Shown one piece after another: positions 1,980 through 28,564 of a DNA stretch of 64,000 bases; positions within the stretch are counted from its first letter, which is position 1; each line of letters starts with the position of its first letter. Both the position numbers and the translations under genes were made by a program. Under the pieces are notes generated by a model, which was not told where the DNA came from, ran no database searches, and was given only the letters and a program-made list of their open reading frames with translations. Location of the stretch: IMG/VR virus record IMGVR_UViG_3300038416_000738; one strand, given 5' to 3'. This DNA comes from a virus.

Positions 1980-2849
1980 ATGGGCGACGTGATTGGTTTC
2001 CCGGTGCCCCGTCATGACGGGAAGAAGAACGACGGGAAGAAGAACGACGCGAAGAAGAACGGCGCGTGGCTCCCGTATAGCGAGACGTCCTCGGGGCAGC
2101 TCACGCTCGACGCCGCGCGCAAGACCGTGGAGTCTGCGAAATGGGGCAAGGTCATCATGCTTGGCGGTGGATCGTCCGAGGATGAAGTCGACGACGTCGC
2201 GACGGTGATCCGGTTTCCGAGTGAGCGTGTCCGCGTGAGCGAAGGCTCGTGTGAGGGCGAGGGCGGCGAAGTCATCACGCTCCGGCCGCCGAACGCGTAT
2301 CACATGGCCTACAACCTCTACGTCCGCGCGAGTCAGCTCGACGAGAATCCCGCGACGTACGACGAGGCGGAAGCGATGTACCGGCGCGCGATCCTGCTCG
2401 ACCCGGGGCTCGCCATCGCGCACACGAATCTCGGCAACATCCTTTTTCGTCGCGGTGAGGATCGCGAGGCCGAGACGCTCTATCGCGCGGCCGTTGCGAT
2501 CGACGAACGCCAGCCGGAAGCGCATTACAACCTCGGTTACGTGATGCTCGAACGCGGCGACGCGCTCGCCGCGTCGGAGCACTTCGGCAAGGCGATCGCT
2601 CGGGACGCCCGCTTCGCGGACGCGCACTTCAACCTTGCGATGGCGTTCGAGCAGATGGGTCGGGGCGCGGAGGCGCGGACAAACTGGAAAAAGTACCTGG
2701 ATCTCGAGCCGAACGGCACGTGGGCGGACATCGCCCGCGCGCACTTGGCGCCGGTGGCGGGGTCGACGGCGGGGCCGGGGTCCGCGAGGCCGAAGCGGAG
2801 GCGCGGGCGCTCGAAGCGCGCGGAATCGGGCCTTACAGGGCCTACGTAG
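1980..2849 (+). CDS. TPR-repeat protein
   Basis: C-terminal half has consecutive TPR-like repeats (AYHMAYNLY.., AHTNLGNIL.., AHYNLGYVM.., AHFNLAMAF..); N-term KKND repeats. Confidence 0.7.
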   Translation: MGDVIGFPVPRHDGKKNDGKKNDAKKNGAWLPYSETSSGQLTLDAARKTVESAKWGKVIMLGGGSSEDEVDDVATVIRFPSERVRVSEGSCEGEGGEVITLRPPNAYHMAYNLYVRASQLDENPATYDEAEAMYRRAILLDPGLAIAHTNLGNILFRRGEDREAETLYRAAVAIDERQPEAHYNLGYVMLERGDALAASEHFGKAIARDARFADAHFNLAMAFEQMGRGAEARTNWKKYLDLEPNGTWADIARAHLAPVAGSTAGPGSARPKRRRGRSKRAESGLTGPT

Positions 2850-2866
2850 ACAGAATGTCTATATAG
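2847..2866. promoter_or_regulatory. palindromic operator TAGACA-GAA-TGTCTA followed by TATATAG
   Basis: perfect 15-bp palindrome read directly; identical element (inverse spacer) at 3828-3847; lies 55 nt upstream of ku ATG. Confidence 0.5.
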
Positions 2867-2919
2867 TTGCATGGGTCGGGAGTCGGCGTTATAAGGGTCG
2901 GAAAGGTGAGGTGAGCCAC

Positions 2920-3705
2920 ATGTCTTCGTCAGCGCGCGCAATCGGTTCAGGAACGATCTCGTTCGGGCTCGTGTCGATCCCGTTCAAGGTCTACACGACG
3001 GCGTCGTCCCACGACGCGTCGTTCAACATGCTCCACGGCAAATGCGGGAGCCGCATGAAGCAGCAGTACCTCTGCCCGGTCGAGAACGTGGTTGTCGACC
3101 GCACGGAGATGGTGAAGGGCTTCGAGTACGCCAAGGATCGGTACGTCCAGTTCACGGCCGAAGAGCTGAAGAAGCTCGAACCCGCGAAGACCGATTCGCT
3201 CGAGATCGTCGAGTTCGTGCCGGAGGAGAGCGTCGATCTCGCGTACCTCGAAAAGAGCTACTACATCGGGCCGGACAAGGGCGCCGGAAAATCGTACCAG
3301 CTCCTCGCGCAGGCGATGAAGGTCGCGAAGAAGATCGCGGTCGGCCGCTACTGGACGCGCGGGCGCGTGCAGCTCGTCCTCATTCGCCCGTACCGCGGGG
3401 GCCTCCTCATGTCGTACGCGTACTACGCGAGCGAGGTGCGCGCGTTCGAGGGCATCGCGCCGAGCGAGAAGACGGAGTTCAAGGAAATCGAGCTGGATCT
3501 CGCGGCGCAGCTCATCAAGCGGCTCGAAACCCCGGCATTCAAGGCGGACAAGTACAAGGACGAGTACCAGGACCGCATCCGGGACGCGGTGGACCAGAAG
3601 ATCGCGGGCAAAGAGATCAGCCTGCCCGACGCGGCGCCTCCGGCGATCATCGTCGACCTCTTCGAGGCGCTCAAGCGCAGCATCGCGGCGGGGATGGGGA
3701 AGTGA
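2920..3705 (+). CDS. ku: Ku DNA end-binding protein (NHEJ)
   Basis: N-terminal 'ISFGLVSIPFKVYTA' Ku core motif, ~260 aa, C-terminal extension typical of bacterial/phage Ku; GGTGAGG RBS. Confidence 0.85.
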   Translation: MSSSARAIGSGTISFGLVSIPFKVYTTASSHDASFNMLHGKCGSRMKQQYLCPVENVVVDRTEMVKGFEYAKDRYVQFTAEELKKLEPAKTDSLEIVEFVPEESVDLAYLEKSYYIGPDKGAGKSYQLLAQAMKVAKKIAVGRYWTRGRVQLVLIRPYRGGLLMSYAYYASEVRAFEGIAPSEKTEFKEIELDLAAQLIKRLETPAFKADKYKDEYQDRIRDAVDQKIAGKEISLPDAAPPAIIVDLFEALKRSIAAGMGK

Positions 3706-5297: not shown

Positions 5298-7316
5298 GTG
5301 ACAAAACGGTATGATTGCGAAGAGAGGCATGAAGTGAACAAGGTGAGCAGGGCGGCGACGAAAGACAAGGCGATGGCGGTGGCGGCGGGGATCTCCGCGT
5401 TCGCGGGGATGCTCTCGCTCGCGGGCCTCTTCGGCCCCTTGGGCGACGCGATCGGGCACGTGCTCTCGGCGTCGCTCGGGGTCGTCGCTTGGGCCGGCGT
5501 CTTGATGCTCGTGCTCGGAGCCGCGTCTCTCTGGCGCGGCAAGGGTTACAAGGCTTTCCGCGGCTTCACGGATGCGGGACTCGTGCTCGTCTTCGCAACG
5601 CTCGTCCGCGTCTGGGGCGGCGATGGCGGGTTCTTGGGTGCGGGCCTCGGCGATCTCGCGGAGTCTGGGCTCGGGACCGTGGGGGCGTCTCTCATGGCGC
5701 TCTTCCTTGTTTTCCTGGTCTTCGCGTCCCGCGTCGACCTCCGCAGTATCGCGGCGCGCCGTGGTCGTAGTGGCGCGGCGCCGCTTCGTCCGGTGCGTGC
5801 GGACATGCCGCACACGCAGCCGATGTCTCCCGCGCCGGGGGCTTGGGCGGCGGAGCCGGAGTCGCTCGCGCCGGTGTCGGTCGCGGACGCCTGCTCGCAG
5901 GAAGATGCGGATGCGGGGACGTCATCGCCGGTGCCTTCGTCGTCGGTGCCTTCGTCGTCGGTGGCGTCGGAGCGGGAATCGTGGGAGCCGGAGTCGTCTT
6001 TCTCTGCGACGCTTCCTTGCGTCTCCGCTCCCGACGGGATCGGGTTCAAGAGCCGCGTTGTCCGCGAGTTCGAGAAGCCGGCGACGTCGCTTCTCTTGCG
6101 CACTGAAGCGTGCGCGGGCGCGGCCGGCGATGCGCAGCTCGCCGAAGAGTCTCGCCACCTCGTTTTGACGCTCTCGTCGTTCGACGTCGAGGCGAGCGTG
6201 CTCGCGGTGGTCCCGGGTCCGGTCGTCACGACGTTCGAGTGCGGGATCGAGGCAGGCACGAAGCTCTCGAAGGTGATGGGGCTCGAGGGGGACTTGTCGC
6301 TCGCGTTCGGCCGCAAGGTCCGCGTCGTGCCGTCGCGCCTCGGGCGCGTCGGGTTTGAGGTGCAGAACGAGGAGCGTGCTGCGGTAGGCCTTCGCGAGCT
6401 TCTCGAGGACGCGCGCTGGGAAGAGGCGAAGAAGTCGGCCTCGCTCCCCGTCGTGATCGGGCGCGACGTTCGCGGCGAGGGTGTCTACGCGGACCTCGCG
6501 ACGATGCCGCACCTCATCGTGGGCGGCGCGACGGGGTCGGGTAAGAGCGTGGGCACGAACGTTCTCTTGTCGTCGCTCCTCTTCGCGCGCTCGCCGGAAG
6601 AAGTCCGCCTCGTGCTCATCGACCCGAAGGTCGTCGAGCTTCAGCCCTACGCGGGCGTGCCGCACCTGCTCTGCCCGGTCGTGACGGAAGCGGATCGAGC
6701 GATCCGCGCGCTCTCGTGGTGCTGCGAAGAGATGGATCGTCGCTACCAGCAGCTCGCTCGCGGGGGGGTCAAGAACCTCGCGTCGTTCAACGGCAAGGTC
6801 TCGCGCACCGAGCGCATGCCGTTCATCGTGGTCGTGGTCGACGAGCTTGCCGACCTGATGATGCAGGAGAAGAAGGCCGTCGAGCCGCTCCTCGTGCGGC
6901 TCGGGCAGAAGGCGCGCGCCGCGGGCATCCACGTCGTCGTCGCCACGCAGCGCCCGTCCGTCGACGTCGTGACGGGGCTCATCAAGTCGAACTTCCCTTC
7001 GCGGGTGGCTTTTCGCACGGCGCAGGCGATTGACAGCAAAGTCGTGCTCGACGAGCAGGGCGCGGAGCACCTCCTCGGCAGGGGCGACGCGCTCGTGAAG
7101 ACCGGCGACTCGGATGCGCTCGTTCGGGTCCAGGTTCCGATGGTCACGGAGGACGAAGTCGGCGCGGTTGTCGGGCACCTTCGCTCGCAGGGCTTGCCGA
7201 ACTACGACGCGAGCATCCTCGCGGAATCCGAGCCCGTGGTGCTCGGAGACGACGGCAAGAGCGGTAAGCGGGGCAGCAAGCGCGCCGCTCGTGCGCCGGG
7301 GAAGGTGTGGTCGTGA
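5298..7316 (+). CDS. FtsK/SpoIIIE-family DNA translocase
   Basis: N-terminal multi-TM region, S/P-rich linker, C-terminal motor with Walker A GGATGSGKS, 'VVVVDELADLM' Walker B, 'ATQRPSVDV'. Confidence 0.9.
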   Translation: MTKRYDCEERHEVNKVSRAATKDKAMAVAAGISAFAGMLSLAGLFGPLGDAIGHVLSASLGVVAWAGVLMLVLGAASLWRGKGYKAFRGFTDAGLVLVFATLVRVWGGDGGFLGAGLGDLAESGLGTVGASLMALFLVFLVFASRVDLRSIAARRGRSGAAPLRPVRADMPHTQPMSPAPGAWAAEPESLAPVSVADACSQEDADAGTSSPVPSSSVPSSSVASERESWEPESSFSATLPCVSAPDGIGFKSRVVREFEKPATSLLLRTEACAGAAGDAQLAEESRHLVLTLSSFDVEASVLAVVPGPVVTTFECGIEAGTKLSKVMGLEGDLSLAFGRKVRVVPSRLGRVGFEVQNEERAAVGLRELLEDARWEEAKKSASLPVVIGRDVRGEGVYADLATMPHLIVGGATGSGKSVGTNVLLSSLLFARSPEEVRLVLIDPKVVELQPYAGVPHLLCPVVTEADRAIRALSWCCEEMDRRYQQLARGGVKNLASFNGKVSRTERMPFIVVVVDELADLMMQEKKAVEPLLVRLGQKARAAGIHVVVATQRPSVDVVTGLIKSNFPSRVAFRTAQAIDSKVVLDEQGAEHLLGRGDALVKTGDSDALVRVQVPMVTEDEVGAVVGHLRSQGLPNYDASILAESEPVVLGDDGKSGKRGSKRAARAPGKVWS

Positions 7317-10250: not shown

Positions 10251-10313
10251 TTTGACGAATGATGACTTGATCTGCTAAGTCATCCTCTGCGTGTGAGAGT
10301 CTGCGTGTGAGAG
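10251..10313 (+). promoter_or_regulatory. promoter/operator region: TTGACG-N18-TAAGTC with 8-bp inverted repeat GATGACTT-N8-AAGTCATC and 13-bp direct repeat x2
   Basis: read directly in 225-bp intergenic gap upstream of the histone-like gene. Confidence 0.4.
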
Positions 10314-10402
10314 GCTCGTTTCCCGGATCGAGGAAGGACCCGCGCCATAGGTGCGCGACGGGTCCTGTTCCGGGGGCGACCGCAAGCGAAAGTGATAAGT
10401 CG

Positions 10403-11212
10403 ATGGGCAGCAAGAAGGTGAAGGTGCACGGCTCGAAGAACACGAAGACCGTTGCGAAAAAGGCGAAGGCCGTTGCGAAAAAGGCGAAGACCGTCGCGAA
10501 GCCGGTCGCGGTCGCGGCGAAGCGGGCGAAGAAGGGTGGAGCGAAGGCGGCTGCAAAGGTCGCCGTGACCGTGGCGCCGGGCTTGAAGACGCCGGGCGCC
10601 GTCGCCGCGACGTTCTCAGCCGAGCGTCCCGGGTACCTGCCGCGCGAGGGATCGCTCCCCGACATGATCTTCCGCCGGCTGATGGACAAGCCCATGCCCT
10701 ACGGCGAGCTTGCCCGGCACCTCGAAGCGGACTCCAAGCTCACGGGCGACGCGCTCACGAGCCAGCTCTCCGCGGCGCTCTACGATCTCTGCAACAAGCG
10801 CGGCGTCCTCGTTCGCGTCGACTACGACACGTTTCAGCCTGTTCCGGCGAGTCGTTCGCGCGGTGCCCTCTACACGGTCGCGGATCGTGCCCGTGCGGGG
10901 TACGAAGCGCGCAGCAAGCTCAGCGCCAAAAGGGGTGCGAGCGTGCCGACTGCCGCAGGGCCTGGACAGCTCGATTTGACGAGCTTCGGGCGCCCGATGA
11001 ACGGTGCCGCGTCGGCTGCGTCGGTTGCATCGGCGGCGACTGCGCAGGTGAGCGATGCGATGCTGATCGTGCTTCCCAAGCCCGAGAAGATGAGCGACGC
11101 GATGTACGCGGAGCTTCGCGCAGCGCGGCAGGCGGCGGCCGACCAGGTCCGTCAGGCGACGGAAGCGATCACTGCGATCGATCGCCTCCTCAAGGTTCCG
11201 AGCTTCTCCTGA
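10403..11212 (+). CDS. histone H1-like lysine/alanine-rich DNA-binding protein
   Basis: N-terminal AKKAKAVAKKAKTVAKPVAVAAKRAKKGGAKAAAK repeats typical of bacterial H1/Hc1-like proteins; globular C-terminal domain. Confidence 0.65.
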   Translation: MGSKKVKVHGSKNTKTVAKKAKAVAKKAKTVAKPVAVAAKRAKKGGAKAAAKVAVTVAPGLKTPGAVAATFSAERPGYLPREGSLPDMIFRRLMDKPMPYGELARHLEADSKLTGDALTSQLSAALYDLCNKRGVLVRVDYDTFQPVPASRSRGALYTVADRARAGYEARSKLSAKRGASVPTAAGPGQLDLTSFGRPMNGAASAASVASAATAQVSDAMLIVLPKPEKMSDAMYAELRAARQAAADQVRQATEAITAIDRLLKVPSFS

Positions 11213-14253: not shown

Positions 14254-14574
14254 ATGAACGCGGATTCGGGTGCGCTTTCGGAGATTGACATGCTCATGAA
14301 GGCGAGGCAGTCGGATCCCAGCCACGCTTTCAAAAGCGAGCTGCGTTCTCTCTTCGACGATTTCAAGGCGAGGGTAGGCCGCGATCCGGACGAGCGCGAG
14401 AGGCAGGCCATCGTGTTCTGGCTCGCCGGCGAGTGGATCTCCATCGCAGCTTTCGCGTGCGGGCGGGTGGATGCGAGCTTCTCGAGCGTCGCGGAGCGCG
14501 TCCGCTCGGAGTTCGAGCGCGGGCTCCGGAAGATGGTAGACGACGGGACAGCGCGAGCCGTGGAGCAGGAATGA
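14254..14574 (+). CDS. hypothetical protein
   Basis: ATG 14254 (alt GTG 14242) in tail of ORF 13588..14574; W/F-containing composition. Confidence 0.45.
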   Translation: MNADSGALSEIDMLMKARQSDPSHAFKSELRSLFDDFKARVGRDPDERERQAIVFWLAGEWISIAAFACGRVDASFSSVAERVRSEFERGLRKMVDDGTARAVEQE

Positions 14575-15392
14575 AGCCTTTTCTTAAATGGGCCGGCGGT
14601 AAGACGAAGCTCGTGCCGACCATCCTCGCGCGCGTTCCCGTGTTCGAGGGCTCGTATCACGAGCCTTTCGTTGGCGGCGGCGCCGTGTTCATGGCGCTCC
14701 ATGCGGCCGGCAAGCTCTCGCGTGCGCACCAGGTGGGCTATGCAGTCCTGAACGACGTGAACGCGGAGCTGATGAACGCGTACGCGGTGGTGCAGGACGG
14801 GGCCACGGACTTCGTGAAGAAGCTCCTCGAGATCAAGCACTCGAAGGAGACGTACTACAAGGTGAGGGCCAAGGAAGAAACGGAGCCGCTCGCGCGCGCT
14901 GTGCGTTTTTGTTACCTCAATAAAACCTGTTTTAACGGCCTCTATCGCGTGAATCGCGCCGGGCACTTCAACGTCCCCATCGGAGACTACAAGAACCCGG
15001 TCATCGTGGAGCCCGACGTCGTCGCCGCATGGCACGCGGCACTCGCGGGCGTGACGCTCCGCTCCGAGGACTTCGAGCCGCGCATCCTCGCCGCGAAGAG
15101 GGGCGACTTCATCTACGTGGACCCGCCGTACCTGCCGCGCTCGAAGACCGCCGACTTCACCTCGTACACGGCGGATCGCTTCGCGCTGAAAGAGCACGAG
15201 CGGCTCGCAGCGGCGCTCGTGACGGCAGACCGTCGCGGCGCGAAGTTCATCGCGAGCCAGGGCGACAGCGAAACGATCCGTGCACTCTACAAAGAGTTCG
15301 GGATCGAGAGCGTCTCGGTGACGCACGCGATCGCCGCGAAAAAAGCGTCGCGTGTGAAGGTCGGCGAGGTTCTGATTTCGAACGTGCGCTGA
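14571..15392 (+). CDS. dam: DNA adenine methyltransferase (Dam/D12-class, GATC-type)
   Basis: N-terminal 'KPFLKWAGGK' SAM motif, 'NKTCFNGLYR', catalytic 'DPPY'; ATG in ATGA overlap. Confidence 0.85.
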   Translation: MKPFLKWAGGKTKLVPTILARVPVFEGSYHEPFVGGGAVFMALHAAGKLSRAHQVGYAVLNDVNAELMNAYAVVQDGATDFVKKLLEIKHSKETYYKVRAKEETEPLARAVRFCYLNKTCFNGLYRVNRAGHFNVPIGDYKNPVIVEPDVVAAWHAALAGVTLRSEDFEPRILAAKRGDFIYVDPPYLPRSKTADFTSYTADRFALKEHERLAAALVTADRRGAKFIASQGDSETIRALYKEFGIESVSVTHAIAAKKASRVKVGEVLISNVR

Positions 15393-15733: not shown

Positions 15734-16246
15734 ATGGGTGAGATCAGAGAACTGACGATCGCGCAGGCGCTTCGGCGCATCAAAGACATCAAGGGCAAGA
15801 TCGCGAAGCACGCGCAGAACGCCCAGTCGAGCGTGACGCACAAGACGAAGAGCGTGCCCGCGTACGTCTTCTCCACGGAGCTGGAGCTTTCGCAGCAGTT
15901 CGTCTCGGAGATGATCGATCTCCAGACGCGCGTGGCCGTCGCGAACACGAAGGCGACCGTCGACTTTGAGGGCAAGTCGAGGCCGCTCACCTGGTGCACG
16001 AAGAGGCTCGCGGAGCTGAAGGGCGCCATCGCGTGGCACGAGGCCCTGCCCGTCCGCGCGCAGGACAAGACGGTCGAGGAGGAGAGCGTGTGGAACTCGA
16101 AGCTCGCGGACAACGTGAGCGTGGAGGTGGAGTACACGTGCCACTTGCCCGAGGCGAAGAGGGCCGAGAGGGTCGCGGCGCTCCAGGCGAAGTTCGCCGA
16201 GCTGAACGACCTCGTGGAGACGATGAATCACCGCACGCCCGTGTGA
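15734..16246 (+). CDS. hypothetical protein
   Basis: ATG 15734 with GGAAAGG RBS; flanked by two >300-bp non-coding regions. Confidence 0.5.
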   Translation: MGEIRELTIAQALRRIKDIKGKIAKHAQNAQSSVTHKTKSVPAYVFSTELELSQQFVSEMIDLQTRVAVANTKATVDFEGKSRPLTWCTKRLAELKGAIAWHEALPVRAQDKTVEEESVWNSKLADNVSVEVEYTCHLPEAKRAERVAALQAKFAELNDLVETMNHRTPV

Positions 16247-16568: not shown

Positions 16569-17117
16569 ATGGCCAAAGACAACGTGAAGAACGCACCGGC
16601 GCAGGCGCCGGCCGCGGAAGAAGGAATGAGCGAGTGGACGGGCAAGTTCGGCGGCAGCGTCGACGGATGGTGGAGCCCGCCCGAGGAAGCCGGCACGTAC
16701 GTGATGAAGGGCATCCTCGTGAACTTCATCAACAAGGACCGGAGCGACAAGCTCCAGTCGAACTCGCTCGTCTTCGAGCTGCTCGAGGACTGCGAGTTCG
16801 TCAAGAACGGCGGCTCGGAGAAGCTCAAGGGCGCGAAGGGCGACATCGTCAAGGCGCCCAAGGGCACGACCATCGGTGTCCCCGAGTGGAAGCAGCTCGA
16901 AGGCATGTGGCCGAACAAGGCGGGCTTCAAGGCGTACATCACCCACCCGGGTGCGCGCCGCCCGATCGGCAAGGGCCGCTCGATGCTGGAACTCAAGATC
17001 CAGATGTCGAACGGCGCGGTTCGCCACGTCGAGGTCCACGAGGAAGAGGACACGAGCGACGCGGCGGGCGGCGGCATGGCCCCCGAGGAGAAGTTCCAGG
17101 TCGAGACGGCTTCCTGA
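16569..17117 (+). CDS. hypothetical protein (probably highly expressed)
   Basis: AGGAG RBS; own upstream regulatory region and a strong terminator immediately downstream. Confidence 0.6.
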   Translation: MAKDNVKNAPAQAPAAEEGMSEWTGKFGGSVDGWWSPPEEAGTYVMKGILVNFINKDRSDKLQSNSLVFELLEDCEFVKNGGSEKLKGAKGDIVKAPKGTTIGVPEWKQLEGMWPNKAGFKAYITHPGARRPIGKGRSMLELKIQMSNGAVRHVEVHEEEDTSDAAGGGMAPEEKFQVETAS

Positions 17118-17144
17118 GAAGTCAGATCGAGGAACGATGAAGGA

Positions 17145-17183
17145 AGCGGGCGCTGGAAGGAGACTTCGGGCGCCCGCTTTTTT
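17145..17183 (+). terminator. rho-independent terminator
   Basis: perfect 9-bp stem AGCGGGCGC/GCGCCCGCT with 16-nt loop followed by TTTTTT. Confidence 0.7.
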
Positions 17184-17200
17184 CTATGAAGGAGGAGAGA

Positions 17201-17638
17201 ATGAACAAGCTTCGACTTTACATCGCCACCGCCTCGAACCCGCTCGAGGAAGCAGAGCGCAGGATCGCTGACGCGAGGGCCGCAGGGTTCGAGATCACGC
17301 ACGACTGGACCAAGGACGTTCGGAGCGCGGGGAATGCTTCGCCGGATGACCCGAGGATTCGGACGTCTGCCGCGAAGGCCGATCTTCGTGGGGTAGAGAC
17401 GGCCGACGTCGTGTGGCTCATTCAGCCCGAAAACGCGAGCACCGGGGCGTGGGTCGAACTCGGTTACGCCTTGGCGCTGAAGGAGGCCGAAAACTCGAAG
17501 CACGCCGCGAAGCGTCCGAGGATCGTGGTCTCCGGCGCTTCCACGCGCTGCATCTTCGCCGACCTCGCCGACGATCGCTTCACGGATCACGACGACGCTT
17601 TCGTCTTCATCCGCGGGATGCTCGGAGCTTCGACATGA
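17201..17638 (+). CDS. nucleoside 2-deoxyribosyltransferase-like (Rossmann) protein
   Basis: GAAGGAGGAG RBS; 'VWLIQPENASTGAWVELGYALA' matches the G-x-x-x-E-x-G-x-A motif of the NDT/DNPH1-like family. Confidence 0.55.
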   Translation: MNKLRLYIATASNPLEEAERRIADARAAGFEITHDWTKDVRSAGNASPDDPRIRTSAAKADLRGVETADVVWLIQPENASTGAWVELGYALALKEAENSKHAAKRPRIVVSGASTRCIFADLADDRFTDHDDAFVFIRGMLGAST

Positions 17639-17865
17639 GCGCGGCGACCGCGTTCCCCAAGGCGACGGAGTCGTCCGCCGCGCTCGCGAGCGAGTGGAAA
17701 GAGAAGACGGGGTGGAACCCGACGCCGGAGGAATACCAGCGTTACCTCGCTCGCGAGATCGAGATGGCAAAGGAGAACATCGCGAAGGGGTGCCCCGCGG
17801 ACGTCGTGCTCCATTCGTCGCGCACCGTCACGCTCGTGCGTGAAGAGCTGCAGAAAGGGAAATGA
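17635..17865 (+). CDS. hypothetical protein
   Basis: ATGA overlap; 76 aa. Confidence 0.45.
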   Translation: MSAATAFPKATESSAALASEWKEKTGWNPTPEEYQRYLAREIEMAKENIAKGCPADVVLHSSRTVTLVREELQKGK

Positions 17866-18356
17866 CCATGGCGAGGATTCCTGGAACGACTTTCCACGAC
17901 GCAGACCCTCCCAAGGCGGATCCGAAGAGCCTCAACACCCTGCGCGATGCGGCGTACGACAACGCTAAGGCGCACGGCTTTCACGACCAACCGCGCACGA
18001 TGGGCGACGGGATCGCTTTGCTCCACACCGAGATCTCGGAAGCGTTCGAAGCGTACCGCGAAGGCGGCGGCGTGGCCGAGATCTGGTACGAGGAGAAAGT
18101 GCCCGCGTACCACGAGAGCGGTGCGCCCATCCTCTCACGCGGCAAGCACGTCTCGGTCGTGGTGGTGCACGAGCGCCAGAACGACGACCCCGAGCGCCCG
18201 TACAAGCTCTGCGGAGTCCCGTCGGAGATCGCGGACCTCTTGATCCGCGCATTCGACTTCGCGGGCGAGCACCGGATCGACATCGAGAAGTTCGTGCTCG
18301 AGAAGATGGCCTACAACAAAACGCGATCGTTCAAGCACGGCAACAAGGTCCTGTAG
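17862..18356 (+). CDS. MazG-like nucleotide pyrophosphohydrolase
   Basis: 'LLHTEISEAFEAYRE' (E-x-x-E) and 'EIADLLIRAFDFAGEHRIDIEKFVLEKMAYNKTR' typical of the all-alpha NTP-PPase fold. Confidence 0.7.
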   Translation: MTMARIPGTTFHDADPPKADPKSLNTLRDAAYDNAKAHGFHDQPRTMGDGIALLHTEISEAFEAYREGGGVAEIWYEEKVPAYHESGAPILSRGKHVSVVVVHERQNDDPERPYKLCGVPSEIADLLIRAFDFAGEHRIDIEKFVLEKMAYNKTRSFKHGNKVL

Positions 18357-20228
18357 ATGCAGGTGCAGCTTGAGAGGTACGGCGCGCCCGGCGCGGCGGG
18401 CGCAGTGAAGTTCTCGCTCAAGAAGGGCAGCGAGGGGGACTTCCGATGCCTGCTCTCACCGTACGGGTGGCAGGCGAGCGTGCCGTCTTCGAAAGCGCCG
18501 GACGTGAAGGTCCTGTCGCAGCGCGATTTCCTCGTGCCCGTGCACGCCGCGATGCTCGCATGCGCGGCGCTCTCGAAGGCGAGGGTCGAGATCTTTGCCC
18601 CGAAGGAAGTCCAAGCGGCGGTCCGCTCCGCGGCGTGGAAGTGTAACGCGCCGAAGCTTTACGCTTACCAGAAGCAGGGCGCGGAGTTCCTCCGATCGCG
18701 GCGCCGGGCCATCCTTGCCGACGACATGGGCACCGGCAAGACGGCGCAGTCGCTTTCGGCGCTCGACGCCTCGAAGGCCGCGCTCATCGTCGTGCCTCCC
18801 GTCGTGCTCGGATCTTGGTTCGAGGAGGCGAGGCGCTGGCGACCCGATCTCACGGCGCGGATCTGGCAGCCCCCCTACGGGATCTGGGCGGAGCCGGGCG
18901 AGATCTGCATCATCGCCTATTCGAAGCTCCCCTATGAGAGCATCGAGTCGAGACTCAGGTGCCCTACGTGCGGCCGCCTCTCGGCATCCTATGTGGACGA
19001 GGCGAGCGTGCTCGTCGAGGAGTTCGTCGAGGAAGACCGCCGCGGGATCGAGAAGAAGATCCAGAGGTGGTCGTACCGATGTGACAAGGATCATGGGGGA
19101 CTCTGCGGCCAAGGTTTCACGGCGCGCGACGACGAGGCCGAGGTCGAGCACATCTGGATCGGGCCGCGGCCGAAGCACGCCGTGCAGCTCATCGTCGACG
19201 AGGCCCACTGGTGCAAGAACCGAAATGCGAAGCGCACGATCGGCGTGCGGACGGTCGCGGCGCAGTGCTGGACGACCTGGATGCTCACGGGAACGCCGCT
19301 CCTCAACGAGCCGATGGAGCTTTGGACGCTCTGCCAATCCTTCCCTGGTCAAGGAAAAGGCAGCTCGGGCGCGAGCGACGCGTTCGGGTCCTTCCCGAAG
19401 TTCGTCGAGATGTTCCACGGCAAGAGGAAGTTCTGGGGCGGCTACGACTGGGCCGTGGACGACGAGGTCGAGCCCGAAGCCCGAGCACGCTTCGCGACGC
19501 TCGCGCTCCGGCGCACGAGGCAGGAGGTGCTCCCAGAGCTGCCAGAGAAGACGCGACGTTTCCTCGAGATCGCGGTCGACGTGCGCGGCATGCCGCACTG
19601 GGGCGAGCCGGAGAACTCCGCGCTCGGCAGACTGAGCGACGATGAGGTGCTCGGGGCCTGCGCACCCGAGGGATCCCTGTCCACGGTGCGCCGCGAGCTT
19701 GCCTCGCGGAAGCTCGACTCGCTCGAGCAGCTCGTCGAGGAGTACGAGGCGACGGGCGAGCCCGTCGTGGTGTTTAGTTACCACAAGGATCCGATCAAGC
19801 AGCTCGGCGCGCGCAAGGGTTGGGCGTGGATCACGGGCGAGACGAACGATCGCGACCGGACGGCGCACGTCGCGGCTTTTCAGGCGGGAAAACTCAAGGG
19901 CCTCGCCGGGACCATCGGCGCGATGGGTGTCGGGGTCACGCTCACGCGGTCCTCGAACATGCTATTCCTCGACCGCGACTTCGTCCCGGCGAACAACCTC
20001 CAGGCGGAGGACCGCGAGATGCGGATCGGACAGAAGCGCGCCGTGCTCATCACGATCCTCGTGACGGATCACCCCGTCGACAGGCGGGTGCGCGCCGTGC
20101 TCGAGAAGAAGGAGAGGTTGCTCGAGGCGCTCGATCTCTCCGAGGGATCGAATGTGCGCGCGGAGGTTGCGTCCCACAAGGGCAGAATAAAGATGGCTGG
20201 CAAGGTCCCTGATTCGGAGGTCTCATGA
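18357..20228 (+). CDS. SNF2-family helicase with Cys-cluster insertion
   Basis: 'LADDMGTGKT' motif I, 'LIVDEAHWCKN' motif II, helicase C-terminal motifs; CPTCG...RCDKDHGGLCGQ insertion between. Confidence 0.85.
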   Translation: MQVQLERYGAPGAAGAVKFSLKKGSEGDFRCLLSPYGWQASVPSSKAPDVKVLSQRDFLVPVHAAMLACAALSKARVEIFAPKEVQAAVRSAAWKCNAPKLYAYQKQGAEFLRSRRRAILADDMGTGKTAQSLSALDASKAALIVVPPVVLGSWFEEARRWRPDLTARIWQPPYGIWAEPGEICIIAYSKLPYESIESRLRCPTCGRLSASYVDEASVLVEEFVEEDRRGIEKKIQRWSYRCDKDHGGLCGQGFTARDDEAEVEHIWIGPRPKHAVQLIVDEAHWCKNRNAKRTIGVRTVAAQCWTTWMLTGTPLLNEPMELWTLCQSFPGQGKGSSGASDAFGSFPKFVEMFHGKRKFWGGYDWAVDDEVEPEARARFATLALRRTRQEVLPELPEKTRRFLEIAVDVRGMPHWGEPENSALGRLSDDEVLGACAPEGSLSTVRRELASRKLDSLEQLVEEYEATGEPVVVFSYHKDPIKQLGARKGWAWITGETNDRDRTAHVAAFQAGKLKGLAGTIGAMGVGVTLTRSSNMLFLDRDFVPANNLQAEDREMRIGQKRAVLITILVTDHPVDRRVRAVLEKKERLLEALDLSEGSNVRAEVASHKGRIKMAGKVPDSEVS

Positions 20229-20512
20229 CGACGGACAACGTGGTGGAGATGAAGAAAAGCGAAACGAAGGACGAGGGGCCGCTCTCGCCCGAGGAGATCG
20301 TGCCGCCGTTCACGCAGATCGTGACGGCGATGACGATGGGCGACGAGGGGTTCCCTTCCGAGGCGCTCTACGGTCTCGACGGCGTGGGCCGCGTCTGGGA
20401 GTGGATTCCCGGTAACCCCGAGTTCGAGGGTTCACGCGATGGATGGGAGCTTCTCCCGAACGTGACCTTCAAGGAGGGCGTCGAGCCGCCCGCGAAACGC
20501 AAACCGAGGTGA
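20225..20512 (+). CDS. hypothetical protein
   Basis: ATGA overlap; 95 aa. Confidence 0.45.
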   Translation: MTTDNVVEMKKSETKDEGPLSPEEIVPPFTQIVTAMTMGDEGFPSEALYGLDGVGRVWEWIPGNPEFEGSRDGWELLPNVTFKEGVEPPAKRKPR

Positions 20513-20520
20513 GGTGAGTC

Positions 20521-20808
20521 ATGACGAAGGCAAAGAAGAAGGCTGCGAAGAAGGCTCAGAAAGTCAAGTCGAAGGCTGCACCGAAGAAGGCGTTGAAGAA
20601 GTCGGTGAAGAAGTCGGCGAAGAAGATGACAAAGAAATCGTCGAAATCGTCGAAAACGTCGGCGGTGAAACAAACGACCGAGAAGGTGCTCGTTTCATCG
20701 GACGGCATGGGTGGTGAGGGGTATCCCGAGAGCGATTCTCATGAGGATGCCAATGACGTCGGAGGCTTGGCCTCGTATGACGAGATCGACCCAGGGTTTG
20801 GCGGATGA
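20521..20808 (+). CDS. lysine-rich histone H1-like protein
   Basis: N-terminal KAKKKAAKKAQKVKSKAAPKKALKKSVKKSAKK...; acidic C-terminus. Confidence 0.55.
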   Translation: MTKAKKKAAKKAQKVKSKAAPKKALKKSVKKSAKKMTKKSSKSSKTSAVKQTTEKVLVSSDGMGGEGYPESDSHEDANDVGGLASYDEIDPGFGG

Positions 20809-21077
20809 CTCGTTCGCGGAAGATGTCTTTCAAGATGGTGACGAACGAGGTCAAGACGGTGGCGGACGAGGTGCTCTGGCTCGCGCGCCACCGCAAAGAG
20901 GACGCGTGGTCCTTGGTGCGTGACTTCAAACGACTCACGCGCGGCCGTCGCGGCGAGCTTGGGCCGCTCGCTGCGACGTTGATCTCGAATCTCGAGTTCG
21001 CCTTGAAGGATGAGCAGAAAAGACTCAGGGCCGAGGCTAGAAAGAAGAAAGCGAAGAACGGAAGGGCGGTCCGATGA
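20805..21077 (+). CDS. hypothetical protein
   Basis: ATGA overlap; 90 aa. Confidence 0.45.
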   Translation: MTRSRKMSFKMVTNEVKTVADEVLWLARHRKEDAWSLVRDFKRLTRGRRGELGPLAATLISNLEFALKDEQKRLRAEARKKKAKNGRAVR

Positions 21078-21691
21078 AGAGCCTTACGCTCATCGCCGCG
21101 ATGACTCCGGACGGCGTCATCGCCGAGGACGGCAAGATCCCGTGGCACGTCCGCTCGGACATGCTTCGGTTCAAGCGCCTCACGACGGGCCACGCGATCA
21201 TCATGGGACGAAAGACGTACGAGTCGATCGGCAAGGTTTTGCCGAATCGCCACAGCCTCGTCGTGTCGCGATCCCCGCACGTGGCGTCGCTCGCGGGTCT
21301 CATCGAGCCGAAGGCGGTCGATGCCTCGGCCGCCTCGTCGCTGTCGTGGTGGACGACGTTCGATCGCGCCCTCGAGCGCGCGTACGCGCATGACCCGTCA
21401 CCGTTCGTCATTGGCGGCGGCGAGATCTACAAGCTCGCGCTGCCGCTCGCGACCACGCTGGAGATCACGTACATCGCGCGGGCCGAGGAGCGCGGCAAGC
21501 GCGACCGACGGATTGGGATGGAGAAGGTGACGCGCTTCCCGATCATTCGCCCGGATCCGTGGGACTGGCGATGCGTCCGTGCGGAGCCCGCGGCGGAGTC
21601 CGTGAGGGGCGAGGACGGGAGCGAGACGCTTTCGGAAGTAGAGGGCGTCGAGTTCCTCACCTTCGAGAGGAGGACGCGTCATGGAGACTGA
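21074..21691 (+). CDS. folA: dihydrofolate reductase
   Basis: 'LIAAMTPDGVIAEDGKIPWHVRSDMLRFKRLTTGHAIIMGRKTYESIG' canonical DHFR N-terminus; '...FVIGGGEIY'. Confidence 0.9.
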   Translation: MKSLTLIAAMTPDGVIAEDGKIPWHVRSDMLRFKRLTTGHAIIMGRKTYESIGKVLPNRHSLVVSRSPHVASLAGLIEPKAVDASAASSLSWWTTFDRALERAYAHDPSPFVIGGGEIYKLALPLATTLEITYIARAEERGKRDRRIGMEKVTRFPIIRPDPWDWRCVRAEPAAESVRGEDGSETLSEVEGVEFLTFERRTRHGD

Positions 21692-21908
21692 GGAATGGGA
21701 ACGCGGCGAGGAGCCGTTCAACGTCGGCAAGTGCAAGTGCGTCGGCGAGACGAAGATGGCGATCCGGGTCGAGGGGAAATTCCGCGACGGCGCGCAGGGT
21801 TCGATGTGGTGCCCGAAGAGCGTGCTTCACAAGAAGAGCAAGGTCCGCAAGAAGGGCGACGAGGGCGCCTGGATCGTGAAGACGTGGTGGGGAGAGAAGA
21901 ACCTGTGA
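21681..21908 (+). CDS. hypothetical Cys-containing small protein
   Basis: ORF track; overlaps DHFR end. Confidence 0.4.
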   Translation: METEEWERGEEPFNVGKCKCVGETKMAIRVEGKFRDGAQGSMWCPKSVLHKKSKVRKKGDEGAWIVKTWWGEKNL

Positions 21909-27216: not shown

Positions 27217-27992
27217 TGACGAGGCGCGCGTTCTCCTCGTGGATGGAGCCGAACCAAGTTTCCATCTATGACGGAACCAAGTGGGTCGTCGGGAGCACGT
27301 CTGCACCGAGCGTGCTTGCGGGTGATGTCACAGGTCCGCCAACAAGATTCCGGACGCTCCGTGATCCCAAGGTTCTTCGTCCCTTCGTCTTGAAGTGTCC
27401 TTCGTGCTCGGCCCCCGTAGAGAGCGGCCGAACCCATTGTCGGTACTGCTGCGTGCCGCTCGCGTGGGAGCCCGTGGAGTCCCTCTCGAAAGACGATCGT
27501 TTCTACGAGATGATCGAAGAGGTTCTGGACGACGGCGAGCCCGTCGGCGCGACGCTCGGGTTCGGCCCGACCGAAGTCTCGTGCATGTCGGAAGTGCACC
27601 TGCAGACGCAGGCATCGATCGTGCTGCGCCCTTCCCACCTCTACGTTCCGCCGAACATCGCCGACGATTTCTCGATCGTGGACCTCCGCATCGGGTCCCG
27701 CTCGCAATTCGTTTCCGTGGGTGCGCTCCCAGCATCCGTGTTCTCGGTGGGGCGGGGCTCGCCCATCGCGTGCGGGGACACCGTGACGCCCGGGTTGATC
27801 GTCAAGCTCGTCGTGCGAAACGAGAGCCTTCGGGATCTGAAGTTTCGCGCGATGCTCCGGTGTAAGACGCTGGAGGGGGTTGGTCGGTCGCTGTCGCGCA
27901 TACCTGGTCCACTCGAGCAGATCGAGCAGATCGAGCAACTCTGTTATTCCGCTACGTTGCTAAATTCCCATACAGTCGGGAAAGGGCGATGA
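27213..27992 (+). CDS. hypothetical protein
   Basis: ORF track; CPSC...CRYCC motif; (EQI)3 from 9-bp repeats at ~27918. Confidence 0.5.
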   Translation: MMTRRAFSSWMEPNQVSIYDGTKWVVGSTSAPSVLAGDVTGPPTRFRTLRDPKVLRPFVLKCPSCSAPVESGRTHCRYCCVPLAWEPVESLSKDDRFYEMIEEVLDDGEPVGATLGFGPTEVSCMSEVHLQTQASIVLRPSHLYVPPNIADDFSIVDLRIGSRSQFVSVGALPASVFSVGRGSPIACGDTVTPGLIVKLVVRNESLRDLKFRAMLRCKTLEGVGRSLSRIPGPLEQIEQIEQLCYSATLLNSHTVGKGR

Positions 27993-28564
27993 AGATTATT
28001 TTTCTCGACTTCGACGGCGTCTTGAACTCGCACATCTTCATGATGAAGGAGCGTCTTCGAGATTCGTTGAAATCCGGCGGCGTCGCGGGGATCGATCCCG
28101 AGGCGGTCGCGCGCCTCAACGCGATCTGCGTGCGAACCGGCGCCGTCGCTGTGGTGTCCTCGTCGTGGCGCTACGGGCACCCGCTCGTCGAGCTTCGGGA
28201 GATCCTTGGCGCTGCGGGTTTCGTCGGCGAGGTGATCGACACGACGCCGCTCCCGAAAGAGTTGATCGGCGAGCAGATCGAGAACGTCTTCGATAAGCAC
28301 GGCGCGAATGCACCGCTCGACGTGGTCACGAAAGAGATCGCGTCGATTGCCGTCTCCCACGCGCGCGGCGCAGAGATCGACAGGTGGCTTGCGTCGAACG
28401 CCGGGGCTCGTGAAGTGGGCGCGTTCGTCATCTTGGATGACGACTCTGACACCGATCCGCACAAGGACCGTCACGTGAAGACGAGCTTCTCGGTCGGCCT
28501 ACGCGACGAACACGTCGAGCTTGCCGTAGAGATTTTGGGCCGGCCATGGAAGAGGACCCGATGA
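27989..28564 (+). CDS. HAD-superfamily hydrolase/phosphatase
   Basis: motif I 'IIFLDFDGVL' (DxDG[VT]); Rossmann-like remainder; 'ILDDD' motif IV-like. Confidence 0.7.
   Translation: MKIIFLDFDGVLNSHIFMMKERLRDSLKSGGVAGIDPEAVARLNAICVRTGAVAVVSSSWRYGHPLVELREILGAAGFVGEVIDTTPLPKELIGEQIENVFDKHGANAPLDVVTKEIASIAVSHARGAEIDRWLASNAGAREVGAFVILDDDSDTDPHKDRHVKTSFSVGLRDEHVELAVEILGRPWKRTR

What the first reader, a model, noticed from the sequence alone, without database searches (positions are those of the whole stretch)
17201..21691. Nucleotide-pool / DNA-manipulation module: NDT-like, MazG, SNF2 helicase, DHFR
Several enzymes are clustered here: a nucleoside 2-deoxyribosyltransferase/DNPH1-like protein (exchanges or removes bases on dNMPs), MazG, an SNF2 ATPase and DHFR. 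Small unknown genes and a second H1-like protein are interspersed. Such combinations occur in phages that synthesise non-canonical nucleotides or counter nucleotide-depletion defences. No thymidylate synthase or known hypermodification enzyme is visible, so any pathway here would be non-standard.
Basis: inference. Interest (0 to 1): 0.6.

Follow-up and report, generated by a model that had tools for sequence, protein, structure and literature searches.

The report
Phage-like nucleotide-pool gene block
This is a real, tightly packed block of nucleotide-handling and DNA-motor genes on a roughly 260-kb uncultivated soil element; it most likely trims the cell's pool of DNA building blocks, and nothing in the sequence shows that it builds an exotic DNA base.

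Summary
They are an NDT-superfamily protein (17201-17638), a MazG-type NTP pyrophosphohydrolase (17862-18356), an SNF2 ATPase (18357-20228) and DHFR (21074-21691). A lysine-rich protein and four small unknown genes lie between them.

The NDT-like protein keeps the Tyr/Asp/Glu catalytic triad. At the position where true nucleoside deoxyribosyltransferases have Asp, it has Ser, as DNPH1 does. I therefore predict a dNMP N-glycosidase of the DNPH1/DmtZ type, not a nucleoside transferase.

About 20 diverged metagenomic lineages carry this protein. In 16 of them a MazG-superfamily gene lies within 1.3 kb, and four different MazG subtypes fill that slot. This argues for a two-step shunt: dNTP to dNMP, then dNMP to base plus deoxyribose-5-phosphate. 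DHFR (ThyX in distant relatives) points to ordinary thymidylate supply.

The 64-kb window holds no PurZ, thymidylate-synthase homologue or other known modification enzyme. GAGCTC is absent (0 observed, about 52 expected), which suggests DNA open to restriction.

Verdict: a new member of a known kind, of moderate interest. The substrate is unknown.

The parts
17139..17183 (+). Strong GC-rich hairpin followed by a U6 tract (terminator-like). It separates the upstream gene from the module and sits immediately before the AAGGAGG ribosome-binding site of the NDT-like gene.
   Evidence: RNA fold dG -39.3 kcal/mol, z = -6.05, 0 of 200 shuffles as stable; sequence read. Hairpin-forming sequence also lies upstream of the gene in L005 and L012 (by eye).
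17201..17638 (+). NDT-superfamily protein (145 aa; 150 aa if started at 17186). Predicted 2'-deoxynucleoside 5'-phosphate N-glycosidase or base-exchanger of the DNPH1/DmtZ type.
   Evidence: Tyr12/Asp66/Glu91 align with DNPH1 Tyr24/Asp80/Glu104. Ser85 aligns with DNPH1 Ser98 and with NDT Asp92. Numbering is that of the 150-aa form.
17635..17865 (+). 76-aa protein of unknown function. Its start and stop overlap the NDT-like and MazG-like genes.
   Evidence: No Pfam, PHROG or NCBIfam hit. Short conserved motif shared with L014 and L029.
17862..18356 (+). MazG-type all-alpha (d)NTP pyrophosphohydrolase with a beta-rich insertion of about 50 residues.
   Evidence: phrog_3301 1.9e-34. Invariant E57, E60, E122, D125, K148, N152, R155. 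Profile vs PDB: MazZ 4.8e-6, DCTPP1 4.6e-5. AF2 pLDDT 89.7 with DCTPP1 as top Foldseek match. 31-35% identical to 'MazG-like nucleotide pyrophosphohydrolase' in 210 phage records, mostly actinobacteriophages.
18357..20228 (+). SNF2-family ATPase/DNA translocase (623 aa) with a Cys-rich insertion in the N-terminal lobe.
   Evidence: PF00176 and PF00271; phrog_62 5.6e-68; ISWI/Snf2 PDB hits at 1e-19. GTGKT, DEAH and QAEDRxxRIGQ motifs read in the translation.
20225..20512 (+). Conserved 95-aa protein of unknown function; its start overlaps the SNF2 stop.
   Evidence: 47-57% identical counterparts at the same position in L005, L011, L012 and L014 and in many metagenome loci. No family hit.
20521..20808 (+). 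Lys/Ala-rich ('H1-like') N-terminus with an acidic C-terminal tail (95 aa); putative DNA-binding protein.
   Evidence: 50% Lys over 40 residues. Positional counterparts in L005, L011 and L012. No family hit.
20805..21077 (+). 84-90-aa protein of unknown function.
   Evidence: Homologues at the same position in L012 and L011. No family hit.
21074..21691 (+). Dihydrofolate reductase (205 aa) with an internal insertion.
   Evidence: PF00186 1.4e-33; phrog_316; 34% identical to E. coli FolA, with the catalytic Asp and the GGG motif aligned.
21681..21908 (+). 75-aa protein of unknown function that travels with the thymidylate-cycle gene.
   Evidence: 54-58% identical homologues directly downstream of DHFR in L014 and directly downstream of ThyX in L006.
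14571..15392 (+). Context gene: D12-class (Dam-type) N6-adenine DNA methyltransferase, conserved 2.5-4.6 kb upstream of the NDT-like gene in relatives.
   Evidence: PF02086 3.6e-56; synteny table.

Best explanation
The block is the nucleotide-metabolism and DNA-transaction part of a large (about 240-260 kb), uncultivated, phage-like element from peat and soil. It is probably transcribed as one unit.

Proposed mechanism:
1. The MazG-type enzyme hydrolyses a particular (d)NTP to (d)NMP plus pyrophosphate. The enzyme class is shown; the substrate is unknown.
2. The NDT-superfamily enzyme, built like DNPH1/DmtZ, cleaves the N-glycosidic bond of that dNMP. This releases the base and deoxyribose-5-phosphate, or swaps the base. 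This step is inferred from conserved residues.
3. Together the two enzymes irreversibly remove one unwanted nucleotide species from the pool. That is pool editing or sanitation.
4. DHFR regenerates tetrahydrofolate for dTMP synthesis by a ThyA supplied by the host or encoded elsewhere on the element (inferred).
5. The SNF2 ATPase is a DNA translocase used in replication, recombination or transcription of the element. It is not an enzyme of the nucleotide pathway, but it is a stable neighbour of the pair.

The element's DNA is most likely canonical apart from Dam-type m6A.
For: Gene identities.

NDT-like active site:
- Across 147 representatives of clusters at 50% identity, Tyr12 is kept in 147, Asp66 in 142 and Glu91 in 144.
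- These residues align with DNPH1 Tyr24/Asp80/Glu104 and with NDT Asp72/Glu98.
- The residue six positions before the Glu is Ser, Thr or Gly, never Asp or Asn. It aligns with NDT Asp92, which binds the 5'-OH, and with DNPH1 Ser98, which makes room for a 5'-phosphate.
- The DmtZ paper uses the same argument (PMC12884076).

Coupling of the two enzymes:
- A MazG-superfamily gene lies within 1.3 kb of the NDT-like gene in 16 of about 20 informative non-redundant lineages, and within 6.5 kb in 18.
- Four different MazG subtypes fill the slot: phrog_3301 type, PF03819, PF01503 (PRA-PH) and a small MazG-like type. That is non-orthologous replacement.
- Viral proteins exist that fuse an NDT-like fold to a 'dATP/dGTP diphosphohydrolase' domain.
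- The experimentally characterised DutZ plus DmtZ pair does exactly dNTP to dNMP to base (PMC12884076).

Operon structure: overlapping stops and starts from 17635 to 21908, with a terminator-like hairpin just upstream.

Thymidylate theme: DHFR lies 4.2-5.5 kb downstream in 11 lineages, and ThyX replaces it in L006, L008 and L013.

Canonical DNA: GAGCTC occurs 0 times against 51.6 expected in the window, and 0 against 8-15 expected in each of seven related loci (one of them, L019, from the same contig as the window). GATC is at expectation, 550 against 544.
Against: No enzyme activity or substrate has been shown.

The NDT-like protein scores below Pfam's curated cut-off. It lacks the GSIRGG phosphate loop of DNPH1, so 5'-phosphate binding is inferred from one well-aligned position and one motif-level position.

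Two lineages (L029, L047) have the NDT-like and SNF2 genes with no MazG between them, so the pairing is not obligatory.

The relatives were gathered with a clade-specific motif (STGAWVEL). Shared ancestry, not function, could therefore explain much of the synteny.

The NDT-like/SNF2 adjacency is nearly as conserved as NDT-like/MazG (14 lineages), and this model does not explain it.

Only about a quarter of the element was examined.
Confidence: 0.55

Rival explanations
1. Part of a non-canonical-base pathway, such as 2-aminoadenine. The MazG-like enzyme would act like MazZ/DutZ and the NDT-like enzyme like DmtZ. Together they would deplete a canonical purine nucleotide and possibly transfer deoxyribose-5-phosphate onto a modified base.
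For: The best PDB sequence hit of the MazG-like profile is MazZ of cyanophage S-2L. DmtZ is an NDT-family dAMP hydrolase/transferase encoded next to a dNTPase (PMC12884076). The NDT Pfam domain is enriched in dZ-phage contigs (bioRxiv 10.1101/2025.10.22.683976). Gordonia phage Ghobes, one of the Z phages studied in that paper, has a protein among the fold hits (rank 17, TM 0.48).
Against: No adenylosuccinate-synthetase-like (PurZ), HD (DatZ) or PolA (DpoZ) protein was found among the window ORFs scanned. tblastn found no NDT-like match in 50,697 phage records. The MazZ hit covers only the C-terminal 40 residues, and DCTPP1 is the better fold match. The element encodes a Dam methylase and avoids GAGCTC and CAGCTG completely, as expected for DNA with ordinary A that restriction enzymes can cut.
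Confidence: 0.1
2. Anti-defence or sanitation device. The pair would destroy base-modified or signalling deoxynucleotides: N6-methyl-dAMP/dATP or 5-methyl-dCTP released from degraded methylated DNA, or dAMP, the precursor of dITP. This would stop them being misincorporated or sensed by host immunity.
For: The closest structural relatives of the two enzymes are DCTPP1 and DNPH1, the mammalian sanitisers of modified nucleotides (PMC13291643). A DNA methyltransferase (Dam or N6_N4) lies within 5 kb of the pair in most lineages. Phage T5 Dmp blocks Kongming immunity by depleting dAMP (bioRxiv 10.1101/2024.12.20.629578). m6-dAMP triggers the PUA-Cal-HAD defence (bioRxiv 10.64898/2026.01.15.699771). 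Distant relatives carry the NDT-like gene near anti-defence-type genes, Tad2-like and AcrVA2-like.
Against: The argument rests only on context and analogy. No substrate information exists. Methyltransferases are common in phage early regions anyway.
Confidence: 0.17
3. No pathway at all. These would be unrelated early genes, each acting alone, kept in the same order only because the elements share ancestry.
For: All close relatives belong to one family of elements, and flanking genes of unrelated function keep the same order too: Dam, two genes of about 170 aa, and an Rv2525c-like glycoside hydrolase. L029 and L047 lack MazG.
Against: The MazG slot is refilled by four non-homologous-at-sequence-level subtypes. 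Adjacency persists down to 37-40% NDT identity, in L010 and in L043, where the order is inverted. NDT-fold/dNTP-diphosphohydrolase fusion proteins exist.
Confidence: 0.15
4. The NDT-like enzyme works on DNA with the SNF2 motor, as a DNA base-exchange (transglycosylase) or glycosylase system.
For: An SNF2-like ATPase lies within 1.5 kb downstream of the NDT-like gene in 14 lineages. These include distant L010, L029 and L047, in two of which MazG is absent. NDT chemistry is base exchange through a covalent deoxyribosyl-enzyme intermediate (established knowledge of the family).
Against: In known NDT-family enzymes the catalytic Glu contacts a free 3'-OH, and the pocket encloses a mononucleotide (PMC12884076). 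No DNA-binding surface or extra domain is predicted in this 145-aa protein. No precedent is known.
Confidence: 0.03

Closest known systems
DNPH1/Rcl (2'-deoxynucleoside 5'-phosphate N-hydrolase; human enzyme specific for 5-hydroxymethyl-dUMP)
   Same: Same fold (Foldseek TM 0.55-0.62). Tyr/Asp/Glu triad aligned. Ser six residues before the catalytic Glu, the position that makes room for a 5'-phosphate. Similar size, about 145 aa.
   Different: Only about 15-20% identity. The GSIRGG phosphate loop is replaced by AGAS. A family-specific invariant Asp40-Trp41 motif is present. Encoded on a phage-like element next to a MazG-type enzyme. Substrate unknown.
DmtZ with DutZ of PurZ0-type Z-genome phages (PMC12884076)
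   Same: A phage NDT-family enzyme acting on a dNMP, encoded beside or fused to a dNTP-to-dNMP hydrolase. No Asp or Asn in the 5'-pocket. The proposed logic is the same two-step removal of one nucleotide species.
   Different: The partner here is MazG-type, not Dut-type. tblastn found no NDT-like match in 50,697 phage records. No PurZ0 in the window. Asp rather than Asn in the triad. No counterpart of the transferase-type Pro was evident; this was judged by eye and not tested.
Nucleoside 2-deoxyribosyltransferases (L. leichmannii NDT, PF05014)
   Same: Superfamily, fold, and the catalytic Glu and Asp.
   Different: Asp92 is replaced by Ser/Thr/Gly. The likely Asn123 position is Ser/Cys/Thr. 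The Pfam score is below the cut-off. It is therefore unlikely to use nucleosides.
MazG-family house-cleaning pyrophosphohydrolases: DCTPP1/RS21-C6, phage MazZ, and 'MazG-like nucleotide pyrophosphohydrolase' of actinobacteriophages
   Same: EXXE...EXXD metal-binding motifs, the K..YN..R motif and the four-helix core. 31-35% identity to phage MazG-like proteins.
   Different: A beta-rich insertion of about 50 residues between the two motif helices. No hit to the Pfam MazG models. Specificity unknown.
T4-type phage thymidylate module (frd DHFR plus td thymidylate synthase)
   Same: A DHFR encoded by the element among early nucleotide-metabolism genes.
   Different: No thymidylate synthase in the window. 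Distant relatives carry ThyX and then lack DHFR.

Membership tests
NDT superfamily (Nuc_deoxyrib_tr clan) | Flavodoxin-like alpha/beta fold of NDT/DNPH1 | tested here: met
   AF2 pLDDT 91.5. Top Foldseek PDB hits are NDT, DNPH1 and BcmB, probability 1.0, TM 0.55-0.62. BFVD hits are viral NDTs.
NDT superfamily (Nuc_deoxyrib_tr clan) | Catalytic Glu nucleophile with supporting Asp and Tyr | tested here: met
   E91 kept in 144/147, D66 in 142/147 and Y12 in 147/147. They align with NDT E98/D72 and DNPH1 E104/D80/Y24.
NDT superfamily (Nuc_deoxyrib_tr clan) | Score at or above the Pfam PF05014 gathering threshold | tested here: not met
   24.6 bits against a cut-off of 28.8. Relatives also fall below it. 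Membership rests on profile and fold evidence.
Nucleoside 2-deoxyribosyltransferase proper (acts on nucleosides) | Asp92 and Asn123 (L. leichmannii numbering) binding the 5'-OH | tested here: not met
   The Asp92 position is Ser 116, Thr 16, Gly 14, Ala 1 of 147. The likely Asn123 position is Ser 82, Cys 35, Thr 14, Asn 7.
DNPH1-type dNMP N-hydrolase | Small uncharged residue (Ser) six residues before the catalytic Glu, making room for the 5'-phosphate | tested here: met
DNPH1-type dNMP N-hydrolase | Second phosphate-binding Ser (rat Ser117) and the N-terminal GSIRGG loop | tested here: inconclusive
   Position 122 is mostly Ser or Cys, but it was aligned only at motif level with no structural superposition. 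The N-terminal loop reads AGAS, not GSIRGG.
DNPH1-type dNMP N-hydrolase | Hydrolysis of dNMP to base plus deoxyribose-5-phosphate | not testable with these tools
   Needs an enzyme assay.
DmtZ/DutZ module of Z-genome phages | Co-occurrence with PurZ/PurZ0 (and DpoZ) in the same genome | tested here: inconclusive
   None found among the window ORFs scanned with Pfam or PHROGs. About 200 kb of the element was not available.
DmtZ/DutZ module of Z-genome phages | NDT-family gene adjacent to a dNTP-to-dNMP hydrolase | tested here: met
   MazG-type instead of Dut-type: 16 of about 20 lineages within 1.3 kb.
MazG / all-alpha NTP pyrophosphohydrolase superfamily | EXXE ... EXXD metal-binding motifs on a four-helix core | tested here: met
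   E57, E60, E122 and D125 invariant in 28 sequences. Profile hits to MazZ, AF1178 and DCTPP1. Fold match to DCTPP1. phrog_3301. No Pfam model reaches E=0.1.
SNF2 family ATPase | SNF2 N-terminal lobe with Walker A and DEAH, plus a helicase C lobe with motif VI | tested here: met
   PF00176 68.5 bits and PF00271 29.6 bits, both above their cut-offs. PDB ISWI/Snf2 hits at 1e-19. Motifs read in the translation.
Dihydrofolate reductase (FolA type) | DHFR_1 domain with the catalytic Asp and the NADPH-binding GGG motif | tested here: met
   PF00186 116 bits.
Pyrimidine hypermodification pathways (T4, SPO1 and similar) | Thymidylate-synthase-like dCMP/dUMP hydroxymethylase | tested here: not met
   No ThyA- or ThyX-like sequence in any frame of the window.

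The most novel reading that the evidence does not exclude
The DNPH1-like and DCTPP1-like pair, always near a DNA methyltransferase and an SNF2 motor, may be a mobile-element system that destroys base-modified deoxynucleotides. Candidates are N6-methyl-dAMP/dATP and methylated dCTP, released when methylated DNA is degraded. Destroying them would both prevent misincorporation and erase a danger signal that host immune systems read. If so, this large uncharacterised NDT clade (6,579 clusters at 50% identity) would be a widespread counter-defence and sanitation enzyme family.
Probability: 0.15. Interest if true: 0.65.

Novelty: new member of a known kind. Interest (0 to 1): 0.38.

Why it matters
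The block points to a very large, uncharacterised branch of the NDT superfamily: 6,579 clusters at 50% identity with E at or below 1e-3. By the searches run here, that branch is almost absent from cultured phages, IMG/VR and reference genomes.

The conserved residues predict that it acts on 5'-phosphorylated deoxynucleotides. Its steady pairing with interchangeable MazG-type pyrophosphohydrolases gives a concrete, cheap biochemical hypothesis: a dNTP to dNMP to base shunt.

If correct, the recently described DutZ/DmtZ logic extends beyond Z-genome phages to a general way for large soil elements to edit or clean the host nucleotide pool. It would also supply candidate enzymes for nucleotide biocatalysis.

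If the substrate turns out to be a modified or signalling nucleotide, the pair becomes relevant to phage counter-defence.

Tried and rejected
- DNA similarity to known phages and plasmids: nothing except a 144-bp DHFR patch in Curtobacterium plasmids.
- IMG/VR scans with the NDT-like protein, SNF2, the NDT alignment and the 75-aa family: one distant locus each (L010, L021) or nothing. The first attempt with the wide alignment failed for lack of a conserved stretch.
- GTDB species genomes scanned with the STGAWVELG pattern: no relative. No host or prophage could be named.
- Domain fusions among family representatives, looked at as possible functional links: only unannotated extensions and one truncated KaiC-like ATPase, so uninformative.
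- Walking the contig beyond the window. The left flank gave ArdC-N/MPTase polyvalent-protein and Mg-chelatase-like genes. The right flank returned only short contigs. Look-ups are now exhausted, so the rest of the 261-kb contig could not be searched for PurZ, ThyA, a polymerase or capsid genes.
- Whether the element is a phage: PHROG and Pfam scans of about 60 window ORFs found no capsid, portal, terminase or tail genes. This stays unresolved.
- Rfam, tRNA and promoter scans: nothing.
- I could not obtain a DmtZ sequence for direct comparison.
- Rejected: a TIR/SLOG-like signalling NADase reading of the NDT-like protein. TIR and SEFIR folds appear only lower in the hit lists, and the NDT triad is intact.


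Full report
**Observation**

The window is 62-67% G+C, and nearly all likely genes are on the + strand. Between 17186 and 21908 lie ten ORFs with coding-type codon bias. They are nearly contiguous, mostly overlapping by 4 bases and nowhere more than 8 bases apart.

- NDT-like protein, 17186/17201-17638. PF05014 scores 24.6 bits, below the 28.8-bit cut-off.
- MazG-type pyrophosphatase, 17862-18356. No Pfam hit, but phrog_3301 at 1.9e-34.
- SNF2 ATPase, 18357-20228. PF00176 and PF00271; phrog_62.
- DHFR, 21074-21691. PF00186 at 1.4e-33.

The ORF at 20521-20808 is half lysine over its first 40 residues and has an acidic tail. The other small ORFs have no family match. The window contains no ThyA or ThyX in any frame.

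**Where the sequence comes from**

The NDT-like and MazG-like proteins occur with identical sequence on metagenome contigs of 243 kb (JGI peat sample 3300009548) and 261.5 kb (ENA ERZ27250124). The JGI contig starts at window position 9233, in the middle of a gene. The assembled genome is therefore probably circular or circularly permuted.

The window also encodes Ku, FtsK/SpoIIIE, a Dam methylase, an Rv2525c-like glycoside hydrolase, HAD_SAK_2 and RlaP RNA-repair-type proteins, an OmpA-domain protein and an ABC ATPase. An ArdC-N/MPTase 'polyvalent' protein lies just to the left of the window.

No virion gene was found in about 60 ORFs scanned. No DNA match exists in the phage or plasmid collections. 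The element is absent from IMG/VR and from GTDB species genomes by the pattern scans.

More distant relatives of the NDT-like gene lie among phage-type replication genes: primase, endonuclease VII, RusA, T4_Y16D, and Tad2-like and AcrVA2-like proteins. I therefore call the element phage-like. Its nature is not settled.

**The NDT-like protein**

Forty-three homologues were found by the word-indexed search. An exhaustive profile search found 6,579 cluster representatives at E at or below 1e-3, and 2,473 at or below 1e-10. This is a large family, yet tblastn finds no member in 50,697 phage records.

The family profile hits PDB nucleoside deoxyribosyltransferases at 5e-4 and DNPH1 more weakly. 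The AF2 model is confident (pLDDT 91.5). Its best structural matches are NDT, DNPH1 and the CMP N-glycosidase BcmB, and, among viral models, annotated NDTs.

Across 147 diverse representatives the following are essentially invariant: Tyr12, Asp40, Trp41, Asp66, Gly87, Glu91, Gly93, Ser116, Gly117 and Phe124. Profile alignments place Tyr12/Asp66/Glu91 on DNPH1 Tyr24/Asp80/Glu104, and on NDT Asp72/Glu98.

The residue six positions before the Glu is Ser, Thr or Gly, and never Asp or Asn. In true NDTs this position is Asp92, which binds the 5'-OH. In DNPH1 it is the Ser that makes room for the 5'-phosphate. The DmtZ paper uses the same argument (PMC12884076).

I infer that the enzyme acts on 5'-phosphorylated deoxynucleotides. 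This is an inference, not a demonstration. The DNPH1 GSIRGG loop is absent, and the second phosphate-binding position could be matched only at motif level.

**The MazG-like protein**

Twenty-eight homologues share invariant E57, E60, E122 and D125 and a K..YN..R motif. The profile hits MazZ (4.8e-6), an archaeal MazG and DCTPP1. The AF2 model (pLDDT 89.7) is a four-helix core with a beta-rich insertion, and it matches DCTPP1 best. It is 31-35% identical to the common 'MazG-like nucleotide pyrophosphohydrolase' found mostly in actinobacteriophages. It is an ordinary member of a widespread phage enzyme family, with unknown specificity.

**Is this a module?**

Four related elements (L005, L011, L012, L014) and 25 further metagenome loci were compared with the window. 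I counted about 20 non-redundant lineages with enough flanking DNA.

- A MazG-superfamily gene lies within 1.3 kb of the NDT-like gene in 16 lineages, and within 6.5 kb in 18.
- The slot is filled by four subtypes that are not detectably similar to each other in sequence: phrog_3301 type, PF03819, PF01503 (PRA-PH) and a small MazG-like form.
- The adjacency holds at 37-40% NDT identity, in viral contig L010 and, in inverted order, in L043.

BFVD also contains viral proteins that join an NDT-like fold to a 'dATP/dGTP diphosphohydrolase' domain. Non-orthologous replacement plus fusion is good comparative evidence for a functional link.

An SNF2-like ATPase follows within 1.5 kb in 14 lineages, including two that lack MazG (L029, L047). 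I cannot explain this adjacency biochemically. I treat SNF2 as a conserved neighbour, not as a pathway enzyme.

DHFR lies 4.2-5.5 kb downstream in 11 lineages. Three distant lineages carry ThyX instead and have no DHFR. A conserved 75-aa protein follows whichever of the two is present. This fits ThyX not needing DHFR, and it points to ordinary dTMP supply.

**Mechanism proposed**

1. MazG-like: dNTP to dNMP plus pyrophosphate.
2. NDT-like: dNMP to base plus deoxyribose-5-phosphate, or base exchange.
3. DHFR: tetrahydrofolate regeneration for a ThyA supplied in trans.

The first enzyme's class is shown. The second step and the coupling are inferred. The only characterised precedent is DutZ plus DmtZ in PurZ0 Z-genome phages (PMC12884076).

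**Against a modified-base pathway**

No PurZ-like, HD, PolA or TS-like protein was found in the window. The element encodes a Dam methylase, and GATC is at expectation (550 against 544).

GAGCTC is absent from all 64 kb, with 51.6 expected. It is also absent from seven related loci, one of which (L019) comes from the same contig as the window, with 8-15 expected in each. CAGCTG is absent too, at 0 against 9.8 expected.

Complete avoidance of palindromes containing all four bases is what one expects of DNA that restriction enzymes can cut. It is indirect evidence only. The unexamined 200 kb could still hold surprises.

**Alternative readings**

These are set out under the rival explanations: a Z-like pathway (0.10), sanitation or anti-defence against modified or signalling nucleotides (0.17), synteny without function (0.15), and DNA-level base exchange with SNF2 (0.03). 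The anti-defence reading draws on four points:

- T5 Dmp depletes dAMP to block Kongming immunity.
- m6-dAMP is an immune trigger.
- DCTPP1 and DNPH1 are sanitisers of modified nucleotides.
- A DNA methyltransferase regularly lies near the pair.

**Verdict**

The finding is real and correctly annotated. It is a further instance of a known kind of system, the nucleotide-pool genes of a phage or mobile element. It stands out for an uncharacterised, very large NDT clade predicted to be a dNMP N-glycosidase, and for that clade's conserved pairing with interchangeable MazG enzymes. Interest is moderate. No evidence for hypermodified DNA was found.

Noticed in passing
whole window; also L005, L008, L011, L012, L013, L014, L019: GAGCTC is completely absent: 0 observed against 51.6 expected in the window, and 0 against 8-15 expected in each of the related loci (L019 is from the same contig as the window). 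CAGCTG is 0 against 9.8. CTCGAG is absent from L005, L008 and L013 but normal in the window. CTAG is 8 against 31.7. GATC is at expectation. This is strong, lineage-wide restriction-site avoidance.
   Followed up: partly
window 17139-17183: Very stable hairpin plus U6 (dG -39.3 kcal/mol, z -6) immediately upstream of the ribosome-binding site of the NDT-like gene. There is no room for a promoter between them, so the module is either read through this terminator or regulated at it.
   Followed up: partly
window 15734-16246 and 16569-17117: Two genes of unknown function (170 and 182 aa), each preceded by an intergenic region of about 320 nt. They are among the best conserved genes of the neighbourhood (58-67% identity in relatives). 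No Pfam, PHROG or NCBIfam hit.
   Followed up: partly
window 9233 (start of JGI contig Ga0116107_1000008): The 243-kb JGI contig begins inside a window gene, and the window extends 9.2 kb further left. This fits a circular or circularly permuted genome of about 240-260 kb. The same element is assembled as 261.5 kb in ENA ERZ27250124.
   Followed up: partly
window 2635-3705, 5298-7316; L019 1-323: Ku-like end-binding protein, an FtsK/SpoIIIE translocase and, just left of the window, an ArdC-N/MPTase polyvalent protein. This mix is typical of both conjugative elements and large phages. No virion gene was seen in about 74 kb.
   Followed up: partly
window 27989-28564 and 49647-50624: HAD_SAK_2 ('Swiss Army Knife' RNA-repair HAD domain, 6e-27) and an RlaP-type nucleotidyltransferase (2.6e-20). 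These may be RNA-repair or counter-defence genes.
   Followed up: no
window 21681-21908; L006 13378-13590; L014 11833-12081: A 75-aa protein with conserved AI(L/R)VEG...W.PKSVL...WWGE motifs sits directly after DHFR or directly after ThyX, depending on the lineage. Function unknown. No relative in IMG/VR.
   Followed up: partly
window 10307-11212 and 20521-20808: Two Lys/Ala-rich ('H1-like') proteins. The small one has positional counterparts, each with an acidic tail, in L005, L011 and L012.
   Followed up: partly
window 52551-54329 and 59028-59924: A 592-aa protein with a C-terminal OmpA domain and an ABC-type ATPase. Both are unusual cargo for a phage-like element.
   Followed up: no
L010 6967-10113 (IMGVR_UViG_3300014613_000072): A 31.5-kb viral contig carries the same order in miniature: NDT-like, a 105-aa MazG-like protein, a 448-aa SNF2-related ATPase, then an N6/N4 DNA methylase, with RusA upstream.
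   Followed up: partly
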